Assembly (NCBI RefSeq): GCF_001677475.2
Contig: NZ_CP015229.1
Direction: 5' to 3' (one strand)
Length of the DNA: 64,000 nucleotides
Source of the DNA: Escherichia coli
GTDB taxonomy: Bacteria > Pseudomonadota > Gammaproteobacteria > Enterobacterales > Enterobacteriaceae
The position numbers are program-made. This document shows positions 12,001 through 15,000 of this stretch, one piece after another. Every line of letters starts with the position of its first letter. The stretch's first letter is position 1.

Positions 12001-15000
12001 GAATGCCCGTGCTGTCCTGTCTGCCCAGGTCTCCAGCGTACCCATGTTCTCTTTCAGGCGGCGGGTCTGGTCATCAAATCCTTTCGTCGCGGCCTCGTTC
12101 GCCGCCTGCAATGCCCCGGCTTCATCGCCGGAACGCTGCAACTGAGCAACATACGCAATCTGCTCCGCCGTCACGTTATGGAACTGGCGTGCCATCGCTG
12201 TCAGCCCTGACGTCGGGTCTGTGGTCAGCTTCCCGAAGGCTTCAGCGACCTTGTCCACCTCCACGCCGGATGCAGAGGAGAAACGCGCCACACTCTGGCT
12301 GATGGATGCAATCTGAGCCTCACCGCTTACTCCCGCCTTAACCAGTGCGCTGAGTGACTCGCTGGTCTGGTTAAACGTCAGCCCTGCCGCCTGCCCGGCT
12401 CTGGACAGGACCAGCATACGATCTGCCGTCAGACCCGACTGATTGCCGGAAAGGACCAGCGTTTTGTTGAAATCGGACAGGGTTGAGTTGCCCTGATACC
12501 AGGCATACGCCAGCGCACCGGTCGCCACCGCCAGCGAGGTGGCCCCGACCATCGGCAGGGTGATCGCACCGGCAAGCCCCCTGAACATGGGGATCATCCC
12601 GCCGAAGGAGTCCTTCACCTGACCACCCTGTTGCAGCAGGATCAGCCACGGACTTTGCCCGCCTGCAAGCTGCGTGGCCACGTCGGTGAACTGCGCAGGC
12701 AGCATACGCATGGCAGCTTTATACTGCCCGACGGAAATCCCCGCTTTTTGTGCAGCCAGTGCCTGTCGCCTCAGCGACTGTTCAACGACTACCGCTGTTT
12801 TTTTCGCATCACTTTCCGTACCGGAAAAATGACGCCTGACTCTGGCCATCTGCTCGTCAAATCTGGCCGCATCCAGACTTAAATCAACGACCAGATCGCC
12901 TACCGGTTCAGCCATACCGGACTCCTCCTGCGATCCCTTCTGATACTGTCATCAGCATTACGTCATCCTCCGTCATGTCCGCCACATCCGGGGAAGTAGG
13001 GATAACTTCATTCCCGTCCGGGCCAAAGCGGACACCTCCGGCAAGCCCTGCTGCTTTCTGCATCAGCACATCATCTTCAGGCTCTTCGTCAGCCTCACGC
13101 CGGTTAAGCAGACTGAAATCCAGCGGATGCATATCCGGATCGCTGAAAAACAGGCTGAGCACGGTATATATCAGCCCGGAAAAGTGCATATCCAGCAGAA
13201 CATCATGAAAATAATGGGTACTGTAAAAGCGGCGCCAGTCGGCATACTCCGTGGATGACATCCCGGCAAGCATGGCACGCCAGTCGGGTCGCCCCATCTC
13301 ACGCGCCAGTTTCAGGGCAAAACTCAGCTCACCGTCGAACACTTTCCCGCAGAAACAGGCTCTGCAGGCCCGGCGTCATCTGCCTGTTCAGGAGCATCAT
13401 TCACCACAAACTCATACATACCGGACAGCCGGTACACCACGTTTTCAGCATGAGAAATTGCCTCCGTGGGCCAGGTGGTAAGCACTTCCTGCTCAATCTG
13501 TTTAACGGCTTCATTCATGGAAGGCAGCTTTGTCTTCTGCGGATGGTTATGCCACAGGGACATCGCCACCACAAAAGCGCCGGTTCTGATGGCGTCTTCC
13601 ACAGTAAACTTCCGGTTGCTGTCTGACTCCGCCTGTTCTGCCTGTCGTTTCATCAGGGCGAGATGCTCAATGCGCTGCAGGGCTGACAGTTCAGAAAGCG
13701 TGACGGTCACACCGTTATGTTCAAATGATTCGGTTTTCAGGAACATCGCTGACTCTCCGGATTAACTGGCGGTGACGGTAATTTCTGCAACCGCAGCAAA
13801 CTCACCATTACCGGATACAACCGGAATGTTGACCTTGCCTGCAGCAACGCCGTTCACGGTGATGGTCATACCACTGACCGACACGGTGGCTTTTGTTTTA
13901 TCCGCAGACACCGCACGAAAGCTCTTGTCGGTTACGCCCTCCGGCTGGAAGGCCACGGTCAGCGTGGTGCTCTGCCCTTTCACCACCGAGGTGCTGGCAG
14001 GCGTCACGGTCATGCCGGTTGCCGCTGTTACCGTGCTGCGATCTTCTGCCATCGACGGACGTCCCACATTGGTGACTTTCACCGTGCGGGTGATCACTTC
14101 CTTCGCCGTCACCGCCTTACCGATACTGCTGACCCAGCCACGGAACACATCGACCGTGCCGTTCGGGAAGCGGATTTTATAGGCACGGGTATCGCCTTCA
14201 TTAAACCACGCCAGCAGCGCCTGCTGCCCCTGCTCTCCGGGCATCCACGCCAGCGTGAAGCTGGTATCTCCGGCAGATTTCTGCCCCTGCCCGGTCGCAG
14301 TCCAGTCTGCATCTTCATCATCGAGATAGCTGTCGTCATAGGACTCAGCGGTCAGTTCGCCGGGCGTCAGGTCTTTAACTTTAGCCAGACGCGACCAGTC
14401 AACGTCTGAAAGCGGGTTCGCATAAGGGTCACCGTTCCCTTTATAAACCCATAGGGTGGTCCCGGCCCCTTTCACCGGCATTACTGGATTTGGTACAGGC
14501 ATATCGTCCTCACATTTCATAGGTAATGACATAAGTCAGATCGGCTGAACTCCACAGGCCCGCATCCTCGTCGCGCCGGTAGTCATAGCCGCTGGCCACC
14601 ATACTGGTGATCAAATCTGACAGTGCCGGGATATCACTCATCACCGGATAAATCCGGGACTCCATCCACGCATCCAGCTCTGAATCCGGCACCTGAGCAG
14701 GCAGGAAAACTTCGATATGCAGCTCCGCCTGCCAGGTATCGCTGTCCAGCTCTTCGCCCGTGTATTCAGCGCCGGTGAGATAAACGGCAACTGCCGGAAA
14801 ATCCGCCTCATCAAAAACAGCGGGGCGACCATCAAAAAACGTCGCCCCGGTGTCATGCTTCTCCAGTGCATCCAGTACGGCTGCACGGAGTTCAGTATGT
14901 TTCATCGCTTTATTACCATCCTCAGTTGATGCTGCAGCGCATAGCCCAGCTCTTTCGGAAGACGCTCACGCCGTATCCGCTCAATATTCTGTTTAAACGC

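What the first reader, a model, noticed from the sequence alone, without database searches (positions are those of the whole stretch)
13324..13348. Conserved G/G-T programmed frameshift and nested or embedded genes (nu3 in C, Rz1 in Rz)
The slippery heptamer GGGAAAG sits exactly at the G/T overlap. C contains an in-frame internal start giving a 201-aa Nu3-like scaffold. Rz carries Rz1 in the +1 frame (25210-25395). These non-standard coding arrangements are easily missed by ORF callers.
Basis: established knowledge. Interest (0 to 1): 0.25.

Follow-up and report, generated by a model that had tools for sequence, protein, structure and literature searches.

The report
Lambda-type frameshift and nested phage genes
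This is the textbook phage-lambda tail-gene frameshift site, plus two textbook gene-within-a-gene arrangements, sitting in a lambda-like Shiga-toxin prophage; it is real but ordinary, and the one correction is that the nested scaffold gene most likely starts 70 codons later than the reference annotation says.

Summary
All three features are in the sequence where stated, on the minus strand of a lambdoid prophage whose head-tail module (window 23452..7999) is collinear with lambda 1..15457 at 97.6% identity.

- **G/GT frameshift.** G is 13746..13324. It carries G GGA AAG (13348..13342) in the correct phase, five codons before its stop. The -1 frame runs on to 12908 and gives a 279-aa G-T fusion, 9 residues different from lambda's. 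In relatives with only 40-69% identical G, a slip-prone heptamer (GGGAAAG, AAAAAAG or GGAAAAG) occupies the homologous position. The T-frame peptide is conserved from the slip site onward, and 8 of 10 have no start-like codon there. T is therefore not independently initiated.
- **Rz/Rz1.** Rz is 25615..25148 and Rz1 is 25395..25210, in the +1 frame, with a lipobox, Cys20 and a proline-rich core. Confirmed.
- **C/Nu3.** C is 19036..17717. The ATG at 18322 matches the RefSeq nu3 (201 aa). Evidence favours ATG 18112 instead (131 aa, 13.4 kDa): a strong Shine-Dalgarno, conservation in all eleven homologues, and a position at the protease-domain boundary. Met239 is absent from nine homologues.

Verdict: already known, low interest. 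PGAP records of related prophages do omit GT, Nu3 and Rz1.

The parts
13324..13746 (-). Gene G, tail assembly chaperone (140 aa), the zero-frame product
   Evidence: ORF and translation. PF06894 4e-59. TIGR01674 1e-63. 95.7% aa identity to lambda G.
13342..13348 (-). Slippery heptamer G GGA AAG, the -1 programmed ribosomal frameshift site
   Evidence: for position and phase. A slip-prone heptamer sits at the homologous position in relatives with 40-69% identical G.
12908..13342 (-). T frame (-1 relative to G), translated only as the C-terminal 144 residues of the 279-aa G-T fusion
   Evidence: PF06223 and TIGR01715. Fusion reconstructed. The GTG at 13342 is not conserved, and the T-frame peptide is conserved upstream of any start codon in 8/10 relatives. 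Anti-SD energy is -2.2 kcal/mol.
13264..13334 (-). Predicted two-tier mRNA hairpin starting 7 nt 3' of the heptamer; a possible frameshift modulator, status inconclusive
   Evidence: z = -2.1 to -2.7 here and -3.2 to -4.5 in five diverged relatives. 92.5% of cells are paired over 37 distinct sequences, but only 2 pairs show double changes.
13762..14502 (-). Gene V, major tail tube protein; upstream neighbour and binding partner of the T domain
   Evidence: PF16461 3e-70. 99.2% identical to lambda V.
10354..12915 (-). Gene H, tape measure protein; downstream neighbour and binding partner of G
   Evidence: PF06791 and PF09718. 853 aa, 99.1% identical to lambda H.
17717..19036 (-). Gene C, S49 prohead protease with a C-terminal scaffolding domain (439 aa, GTG start)
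   Evidence: SppA structures align to residues 81-298. Anti-SD energy is -12.0 kcal/mol.
17717..18322 (-). Nu3 as in the RefSeq lambda annotation (201 aa, ATG = C codon 239); probably not the conserved start
   Evidence: Met239 is not conserved. No SD. The only SD-like GGAG upstream is polymorphic in 64 lambda-like C genes.
17717..18112 (-). Nested scaffold gene as supported here (131 aa, 13.4 kDa, ATG = C codon 309); its AGGAGG SD lies at 18122..18117
   Evidence: phrog_8399 'head scaffolding protein' (131 positions) matches it end to end.
25148..25615 (-). Rz, i-spanin (155 aa, N-terminal transmembrane segment, two conserved Cys)
   Evidence: PF03245 8e-49. phrog_13. About 67% identical to lambda Rz.
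25210..25395 (-). Rz1, o-spanin lipoprotein (61 aa), wholly embedded in the +1 frame of Rz
   Evidence: PF06085 6e-21. Frame offset, lipobox LVVSA|C, Cys20, Cys30 and the PPAPP motif.

Best explanation
The window holds a lambdoid (Stx2g-converting) prophage on the minus strand, and its virion-assembly module is essentially lambda's.

**G/GT frameshift.** Ribosomes translating G reach G GGA AAG. Most continue and terminate five codons later, giving gpG. A minority (about 4% in lambda) slip back one base, so that the P-site tRNA-Gly repairs from GGA to GGG and the A-site tRNA-Lys from AAG to AAA. These ribosomes read on in the T frame and make a 279-aa gpGT. gpG and the G part of gpGT coat the tape measure protein H. 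The T part recruits the tail tube protein V. The fixed ratio of about 30:1 is set by the slip rate. T has no start of its own.

**C/Nu3.** Gene C encodes an S49 protease fused to a scaffolding domain. A second initiation inside C, in the same frame and ending at the same stop, makes the free scaffold. This start is most likely the ATG at 18112 with its AGGAGG Shine-Dalgarno, giving 131 aa, and not the annotated 18322.

**Rz/Rz1.** Rz1, an outer-membrane lipoprotein, is read from the +1 frame inside Rz, an inner-membrane protein. The two form the spanin that disrupts the outer membrane at lysis.

**Shown here:** anatomy, phase, homology, conservation and start-site signals.
**Inferred from lambda experiments:** slip rate, product ratios and protein functions.
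For: - **Collinearity.** Window 23452..7999 is collinear with lambda 1..15457 at 97.6% identity. All lambda head and tail proteins from Nu1 to I are full length.
- **Heptamer.** Position and phase are correct and the fusion is 279 aa.
- **Family membership.** G, T, C, Rz and Rz1 all match their families. V and H flank G/T.
- **Conservation of the slip site.** A slip-prone heptamer lies 22 nt before the G stop in 9 of 10 relatives (10 nt in one) down to 40% G identity, varying among GGGAAAG, AAAAAAG and GGAAAAG. It is GGAAAAG in 80/80 further loci.
- **T is not self-initiated.** The T-frame peptide is conserved from the slip site, and in 8/10 relatives the first start-like codon is 12-26 codons downstream. 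The T 'start' has the weakest anti-SD energy of all tested starts.
- **Scaffold start.** ATG309 plus an SD-like motif is conserved in 11/11 C homologues, while Met239 is present only in lambda-type sequences. The SD energy is -10.8 against -3.8 kcal/mol. The protease fold ends near residue 298, and stand-alone phage proteases stop aligning at about 294.
- **Rz1.** +1 frame, lipobox, Cys20/Cys30 and the PPAPP core match the determinants described for lambda (PMC5295617).
- **Literature.** GGGAAAG and about 96% zero-frame reading (PMC3296357). The 30:1 ratio and chaperone model (PMC5009743). The C/Nu3 overlap, Shaw & Murialdo 1980, as cited in PMC8508860.
Against: - No expression data exist for this prophage. 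An ISEc10 insertion lies inside the late operon between I and J, and it is not known whether the prophage is inducible.
- For the Nu3 start, the RefSeq lambda record and the HK630 record both keep 201 aa. Both ATGs are invariant within 64 lambda-like C genes. Some genuine lambda late genes also have weak SDs, for example Nu1, B and E. I could not read the primary papers on purified gpNu3.
- My recollection that purified gpNu3 is 13.4 kDa is from memory only. The computed mass of the 131-aa product, 13,394 Da, is consistent with it.
Confidence: 0.9

Rival explanations
1. T is an ordinary gene initiated at the GTG at 13342, as PGAP and RefSeq annotate it, and no frameshift is needed.
For: A GTG opens the T ORF exactly at the end of the heptamer. 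Annotated records list T as a stand-alone 144-aa CDS.
Against: - That codon is GTC, GCA or GCC in relatives, whose first T-frame start-like codon lies 12-26 codons downstream of conserved residues.
- The anti-SD energy is -2.2 kcal/mol, the weakest of all starts tested.
- The slip-prone heptamer is positionally conserved.
- Lambda experiments show the fusion (PMC3296357, PMC5009743).
Confidence: 0.02
2. The scaffold protein is the 201-aa product initiated at ATG 18322, as the first reader and the RefSeq nu3 annotation state. It is either the only nested product or is made alongside the 131-aa one.
For: It is identical in position to lambda nu3 5132..5737. The ATG is invariant in 64 lambda-like C genes. 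phrog_8940 'capsid assembly protein' is a 201-aa family. The HK630 annotation uses it.
Against: - Met239 is Ile, Ile, Cys, Ile, Ala, Val, Val, Val, Val in nine more distant homologues.
- It has no SD.
- The nearby GGAG is freely polymorphic.
- The start lies about 60 residues inside the S49 fold.
- Database families built from annotations are not independent evidence.
Confidence: 0.2
3. The sites are intact relics. The prophage is cryptic or crippled, for example by the ISEc10 insertion in the late operon, so none of the three arrangements is currently expressed into working virions.
For: ISEc10 sits between I and J. A 2.1-kb low-GC module transcribed in the opposite direction lies between Q and the stx/lysis/late genes. 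Related prophages in RefSeq genomes have frameshifted terminase and lysozyme genes.
Against: - All 20 lambda morphogenetic proteins from Nu1 to I align full length without stops, and J is a full-length 1233-aa ORF (lambda J aligns over its first 854 residues).
- Q, holin, lysozyme, Rz, Rz1 and integrase are present.
- The IS is intergenic and co-oriented with the late operon, and Q-modified polymerase reads through terminators (established lambda biology).
Confidence: 0.15
4. The G-T fusion arises by transcriptional slippage of RNA polymerase, not by ribosomal slippage.
For: Some phage and bacterial recoding sites use polymerase slippage on homopolymer runs (PMC5009743). The Stx1/VT1-Sakai relatives carry a run of six A.
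Against: Here the runs are only GGG and AAA, too short for efficient polymerase slippage. The site has the X XXY YYZ phase required for tandem tRNA re-pairing. In lambda, tRNA-Lys modification changes the G:GT ratio (PMC3296357).
Confidence: 0.01

Closest known systems
Phage lambda G / G-T tail assembly chaperone -1 programmed frameshift (Levin, Hendrix & Casjens 1993; conserved across long-tailed phages, Xu, Hendrix & Duda 2004)
   Same: Same heptamer G GGA AAG in the same phase, at the same offset in G (398) and the same distance from the G stop. The fusion is 279 aa in both. The neighbours V and H are the same. There is no substitution within 131 nt around the site.
   Different: Nine amino-acid substitutions in the fusion: six in the G part and three in the T part. 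The host genome is a Stx2g prophage, not lambda itself.
Phage lambda C / Nu3 nested protease-scaffold genes (Shaw & Murialdo 1980)
   Same: C is 439 aa with the same GTG start and SD and 96.8% identity. It shares frame and stop with the nested gene, and both candidate internal ATGs are present.
   Different: Nothing differs from lambda in architecture. What differs is my reading from the RefSeq annotation: codon 309 (131 aa) instead of codon 239 (201 aa) is the conserved, SD-equipped start. The window carries GGGAAAC where lambda has GGGAGAC upstream of codon 239, a synonymous change.
Phage lambda Rz / Rz1 embedded two-component spanin (Zhang & Young 1999; Cahill et al. 2017, PMC5295617)
   Same: Rz1 is wholly inside Rz in the +1 frame. 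The signal peptide has a lipobox and Cys20. A second Cys, a proline-rich core, the Rz N-terminal transmembrane segment and two periplasmic Cys are all present.
   Different: The proteins are only about 67-69% identical to lambda's. Rz is 155 against 153 aa and Rz1 is 61 against 60 aa. The penta-proline is PPAPP, with Ala at the one position the lambda study found tolerant. The cassette has a P21-type holin and an extra 213-aa ORF, unlike lambda's S-R-Rz order.
E. coli dnaX -1 frameshift (A AAA AAG with an upstream SD-like element and a downstream stem-loop)
   Same: A tRNA-Lys AAG-to-AAA slip on an X XXY YYZ heptamer. A stem-loop is predicted 7 nt downstream here as well.
   Different: There is no upstream SD-like stimulator here. 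The efficiency in lambda is about 4%, far lower than dnaX. A role for the hairpin is unproven, and covariation is weak.

Membership tests
Lambda-type G/GT tail assembly chaperone frameshift | Two overlapping ORFs located between the major tail gene and the tape measure gene | tested here: met
   V 14502..13762, G 13746..13324, T frame to 12908, H 12915..10354.
Lambda-type G/GT tail assembly chaperone frameshift | Slippery heptamer X XXY YYZ in the zero frame inside the region where both frames are open | tested here: met
   G GGA AAG at 13348..13342, phase checked. Both frames are open over 52 nt.
Lambda-type G/GT tail assembly chaperone frameshift | The downstream ORF lacks its own initiation signal, and conserved residues extend up to the slip site | tested here: met
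   no start-like codon at the slip site in 8/10 relatives; -2.2 kcal/mol.
Lambda-type G/GT tail assembly chaperone frameshift | Sequence membership of both halves (Phage_TAC_2 / phage_lambda_G and Phage_tail_T / phage_lam_T) | tested here: met
   PF06894 198 bits, PF06223 53 bits. TIGR01674 213 bits, TIGR01715 187 bits. All are above their cut-offs.
Lambda-type G/GT tail assembly chaperone frameshift | A fusion protein is actually made at a low fixed ratio | not testable with these tools
   Known for lambda only (PMC3296357, PMC5009743).
Lambda C/Nu3 nested protease-scaffold gene | S49 (SppA-like) protease domain followed by a C-terminal scaffold domain, encoded between the portal and decoration/capsid genes | tested here: met
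   PF01343 1e-43. PDB SppA aligns to residues 81-298. B, D and E flank it.
Lambda C/Nu3 nested protease-scaffold gene | In-frame internal initiation codon with a ribosome-binding site, sharing the stop codon of C | tested here: met
   ATG 18112 with AGGAGG 4 nt upstream, -10.8 kcal/mol. Conserved in 11/11 homologues.
Lambda C/Nu3 nested protease-scaffold gene | The internal start is the one annotated in RefSeq (C codon 239, 201 aa) | tested here: not met
   The ATG is present, but it has no SD, is not conserved outside lambda-type sequences, and lies inside the protease fold.
Embedded two-component spanin (Rz/Rz1 type) | i-spanin with an N-terminal transmembrane segment and a periplasmic domain, encoded downstream of the endolysin | tested here: met
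   PF03245 165 bits. Hydrophobic N-terminus. Lysozyme at 26627..26094 and holin at 27940..27725 lie upstream.
Embedded two-component spanin (Rz/Rz1 type) | o-spanin ORF entirely inside the i-spanin gene in the +1 frame | tested here: met
   25395..25210 lies within 25615..25148, and 220 mod 3 = 1.
Embedded two-component spanin (Rz/Rz1 type) | o-spanin has a lipoprotein signal peptide with a lipobox Cys and a short proline-rich mature part | tested here: met
   [20 protein letters not shown]; mature part [20 protein letters not shown].... PF06085 74 bits.
Embedded two-component spanin (Rz/Rz1 type) | Both subunits are required for outer-membrane disruption | not testable with these tools
   Known for lambda (PMC5295617).

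The most novel reading that the evidence does not exclude
A conserved mRNA hairpin (window 13334..13264, minus strand) begins 7 nt downstream of the slip site. It would tune the G:GT ratio across lambda-, Stx-, N15-, phi80- and Klebsiella-type phages. That would explain why the first ~30 codons of T are far more conserved at the nucleotide level than G, and why variation at synonymous stem positions is mostly C/U opposite G, which keeps the pair. I could not check whether this has been tested for lambda. My recollection is that no stimulatory structure is considered necessary.
Probability: 0.2. Interest if true: 0.35.

Novelty: already known. Interest (0 to 1): 0.1.

Why it matters
It matters mainly for annotation.

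- Automatic pipelines (PGAP in the two related genomes examined) call T as a free-standing gene with a false GTG start. They omit the GT fusion, the nested scaffold gene and Rz1. Proteomic databases built from such annotations would therefore miss these products in Shiga-toxin prophages.
- The reference start of lambda nu3 appears to be perpetuated by copying. Comparative data point to a start 70 codons downstream.

Neither point changes the understanding of phage biology.

Tried and rejected
- **Counting the heptamer.** GGGAAAG occurs 10 times against 8.5 expected, so it is uninformative on its own.
- **Naive window-wide scan.** Scanning for in-frame X_XXY_YYZ sites with long -1 extensions ranks the G/T site second. 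The scan is polluted by shadow ORFs overlapping real genes, so I rejected it as a significance test.
- **PDB search with the GT fusion.** No relatives by sequence.
- **First scan of viral contigs with the C alignment.** It returned only 96-99% identical loci. These were useful for polymorphism but not for deep conservation, so diverse phage records were fetched one by one.
- **Literature on the Nu3 start and on downstream stimulators of the lambda frameshift.** Medina 2010 and 2011, Casjens & Hendrix 2015, Xu 2013 and Liu 2013 are not held. Full-text searches found only reference-list mentions.
- **Exact-sequence cluster look-up.** The 131-aa and 201-aa forms both exist in databases, but without informative names.
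- **Non-coli host.** I considered that the host might not be E. coli, because the chromosomal flank is only about 95-96% identical to the best complete genomes. I rejected this as unsupported. The flank contains the variable ypjA autotransporter, and other segments match E. coli at 99.8-99.9%.
- **PADLOC on the low-GC three-gene module.** No hit.
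Full report
**Where the features are.** The phage genes run on the minus strand. 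Reading that strand across the stated coordinates gives ...CCT GTT TCT GCG GGA AAG TGT TCG ACG GTG AGC TGA. The 140-codon ORF 13746..13324 ends ...PVSAGKCSTVS*. GGGAAAG occupies 13348..13342. Its offset in the ORF is 398, which phases it as G GGA AAG. The -1 frame reads GGG AAA GTG TTC GAC... and stays open to 12908.

**Is the heptamer more than chance?** Not by itself. The window holds 10 copies against 8.5 expected from shuffles. A naive scan for phased heptamers with long -1 extensions also picks up shadow ORFs. The case rests on context and conservation.

**What the region is.** Window 7999..23452 aligns to lambda 15457..1 at 97.6% identity. The cos junction lies at 23452/23453. Every lambda protein from Nu1 to I aligns full length without stops, at 88-100% identity. 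The G/T segment has the same length as lambda's, with 22 substitutions in 839 nt and none in the 131 nt surrounding the heptamer. The reconstructed fusion is 279 aa in both and differs at nine residues.

Family searches agree:
- G is Phage_TAC_2 / TIGR01674.
- T is Phage_tail_T / TIGR01715.
- The neighbours are the tail tube protein V and the tape measure protein H.

More than 100 phage records and about 3,700 complete E. coli genomes carry this segment at 95-99% identity.

**Conservation test of the frameshift.** I fetched eight relatives whose G proteins are 40-69% identical.
- In nine of the ten sequences, a slip-prone heptamer lies 22 nt before the G stop. In the tenth it lies 10 nt before.
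- The heptamer is GGGAAAG in lambda-type phages and AAAAAAG in the Stx1/VT1-Sakai type. It is GGAAAAG in the N15, phi80 and Klebsiella type.
- GGAAAAG is invariant in 80 of 80 further viral contigs of that clade.
- The T-frame peptide is conserved from the very slip site: GK/KK-x-F/L-x-x-EL-x-F-x-L-x-LARE-M/F-GRPDWRAMLAGM.
- In eight of ten sequences, the first ATG, GTG or TTG in that frame lies 12, 18 or 26 codons downstream.

The GTG at 13342 that PGAP and RefSeq use as the start of T is therefore an accidental Val codon. Its anti-Shine-Dalgarno pairing energy, -2.2 kcal/mol, is the weakest of all starts tested.

The mechanism and numbers come from lambda experiments cited in held papers. 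The site is G_GGA_AAG, about 96% of ribosomes stay in frame, and the ratio is sensitive to tRNA-Lys thiolation (PMC3296357; PMC7618472). The gpG:gpGT ratio is about 30:1. G binds the tape measure protein and T binds the tail tube protein (PMC5009743).

**Rz and Rz1.** Rz is 25615..25148 (155 aa, PF03245). Rz1 is 25395..25210 (61 aa, PF06085), offset by 220 nt, which is the +1 frame, exactly as in lambda. The proteins are only about 67-69% identical to lambda's but keep the functional determinants described for lambda (PMC5295617):
- an N-terminal hydrophobic segment and two periplasmic Cys in Rz;
- a signal peptide ending LVVSA|C, with the lipidated Cys at position 20;
- no Asp at position +2;
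- a second Cys at position 30;
- a proline-rich core, KPPAPPAW, in which the central Pro of lambda's penta-proline is Ala, the one position that study found tolerant.

The cassette upstream has a P21-type holin, a 213-aa ORF of unknown function and a phage lysozyme.

**C and Nu3.** C is 19036..17717.

Five results argue that this is not the working start.
1. **No Shine-Dalgarno.** The pairing energy is -3.8 kcal/mol, ninth among in-frame start-like codons of C. The ATG at codon 309 (18112..18110) follows AGGAGG by 4 nt and scores -10.8, second only to the C start at -12.0.
2. **Deep conservation.** I aligned eleven C homologues, from lambda through HK225, ev017, Alteromonas P24 and the Chi-like phages of Burkholderia, Ruegeria, Rhodobacter, Pectobacterium, Klebsiella and Salmonella, down to about 29% identity. 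An in-frame ATG with a GGAG-type motif 4-10 nt upstream occurs in all eleven. It lies at or within five columns of codon 309 and leaves 127-139 residues (200 in ev017). Column 239 is Met only in lambda and the window. Elsewhere it is Ile, Ile, Cys, Ile, Ala, Val, Val, Val, Val.
3. **Polymorphism within lambda-like genes.** Among 64 distinct lambda-like C genes, the AGGAGG 20-mer is the same in 62. The only SD-like GGAG ahead of codon 239 is split roughly evenly between GGGAG and GGGAA.
4. **Domain boundary.** Solved SppA structures align to C residues 81-298, and stand-alone phage proteases stop aligning at about residue 294. A 201-aa product would carry some 60 residues of the protease fold. 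A 131-aa product starts just after it.
5. **An existing annotation family.** PHROG 8399, 'head scaffolding protein', has 131 positions and matches the last 131 residues end to end.

The computed mass of lambda's 131-aa product is 13,394 Da. That agrees with my recollection, from memory and not verifiable here, that purified gpNu3 is a 13.4-kDa protein and that Nu3 equals the C-terminal third of C.

Annotations disagree with each other:
- 201 aa in RefSeq lambda, HK630 and phage 434; the 434 record's note begins 'real Nu3 start ...' and is cut off;
- 233 aa in lambda imm21;
- 131 aa in the PHROG family.

I put about 0.75-0.8 on 18112 as the main start. A minor 201-aa product is not excluded.

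**Are these missed by ORF callers?** In two PGAP-annotated relatives, E. coli DEC5B and MFDS1022581, T is a stand-alone CDS and there is no GT fusion, no Nu3 and no Rz1.

**A side observation on the frameshift site.** The 86-102 nt after the heptamer fold into a two-tier hairpin that starts 7 nt downstream. The z-score is -2.1 to -2.7. Five diverged relatives fold the same way, with z from -3.2 to -4.5.

Over 37 distinct sequences, 92.5% of cells are paired, against 22-43% when partners are slid. However, 12 of 22 pairs never vary, and only two pairs show changes on both sides, each probably a single clade-level event. Fourfold-degenerate sites in stems are less variable than free ones (entropy 0.52 against 1.10), but the sample is tiny, six and three sites.

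The strong amino-acid conservation of this part of T confounds the signal. I call it inconclusive.

**Context.** The prophage carries stxA and stxB. stxA is 29752..28793 and passes the NCBIfam Stx2g cut-off with 746 against 736 bits. stxB is 28780..28511. Its early and lysis regions are closest to Stx2g and Stx2e prophages of animal E. coli. An ISEc10 element sits between I and J. A low-GC three-gene module of unknown function, transcribed in the opposite direction, lies between Q and the methyltransferase/tRNA/stx region. Whether the prophage is inducible cannot be told from sequence.

**Verdict.** It is correct in kind for the nested scaffold gene but probably wrong in the start coordinate. 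Everything here is textbook lambda biology found in a close relative: already known, low interest.

Noticed in passing
window 28511-29752 (minus strand): Shiga toxin operon. stxA is 29752..28793 (319 aa) and stxB is 28780..28511 (89 aa). The A subunit passes the NCBIfam Stx2g cut-off (746 against 736 bits). The prophage is Stx2g-converting with a lambda-type virion module.
   Followed up: partly
window 5589-7998: A 2.4-kb ISEc10 (IS21 family; istA 499 aa, istB 251 aa) is inserted in the I-J intergenic region of the late operon. It is co-oriented with the operon and flanked by an approximate ATGTTTT(T)AT duplication. It is 99.8% identical to copies in bovine and crow E. coli strains, one of which has 12 copies and also carries a Stx2g prophage.
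   Followed up: partly
window 31732-33839 (plus strand): A low-GC (0.30-0.35) module of three genes (350, 130 and 240 aa) is transcribed opposite to the phage late genes. It lies between Q (34217..33870) and the DNA methyltransferase/tRNA/stx region. There are no Pfam or PADLOC hits, only PHROGs of unknown function (12777, 11490, 9664). It is 99.9% identical, together with the adjacent Q gene, in pig E. coli prophages, including a Stx2e strain. It may be a moron or a defence cassette.
   Followed up: partly
window 13264-13334 (minus strand); loci L004-L011, L103-L182: A predicted hairpin begins 7 nt downstream of the G/T slip site and is kept in diverged relatives (z down to -4.5). Covariation support is weak, and the signal is confounded by the highly conserved N-terminus of the T domain.
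   Followed up: partly
loci L008-L011 and L103-L182 (position 501 in most): The N15, phi80, mEp043 and Klebsiella clade has the non-canonical heptamer G GAA AAG at the position homologous to lambda's G GGA AAG. It is invariant in 80/80 viral contigs. Only the A-site Lys codon can re-pair perfectly after a -1 slip.
   Followed up: partly
L001 5132/5342; L012 724-1425; L013 815-1420; L183 843-1448: Public records disagree on the lambda-type scaffold gene start: 201 aa (RefSeq lambda, HK630, phage 434), 233 aa (lambda imm21) and 131 aa (PHROG 8399). The phage 434 record carries a note beginning 'real Nu3 start ...' that the tool truncates.
   Followed up: yes
window 29843-30096 (minus strand): Two phage tRNA genes lie just upstream of stxA: tRNA-Arg(tct) and a CAT-anticodon tRNA. 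The CAT tRNA is called Met by ARAGORN and annotated as Ile in a related genome. This is the usual Stx-phage arrangement.
   Followed up: no
window 28238-28436, 38296-38383, 38408-38484 (all minus strand): Three Rfam hits above gathering score. STnc100 sRNA lies just downstream of stxB. C4 antisense RNA and isrK lie inside the 433-aa Ash/Rha-domain ORF 37873..39174 of the early region.
   Followed up: no
window 27725-27940 (minus strand): The P21-type holin (71 aa) begins M-Y-Q-M, so it has two in-frame Met codons three codons apart. This recalls the dual-start holin/antiholin motif of phage 21, but there is no charged residue between them.
   Followed up: no
window 1834-5535 (minus strand): The J tail-tip protein is 1233 aa against 1132 in lambda. 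It is 92% identical over the first 854 residues and then diverges, although it still ends in a GpJ C-terminal receptor-binding domain. A different receptor specificity is likely.
   Followed up: no
window 46000-64000: The chromosomal flank (integrase, ypjA-like autotransporter, gab operon) is only 94-96% identical to the best complete E. coli genomes. Phage-internal segments match E. coli at 99.8-99.9%. The difference is probably due to the variable autotransporter region and not to a non-coli host.
   Followed up: partly
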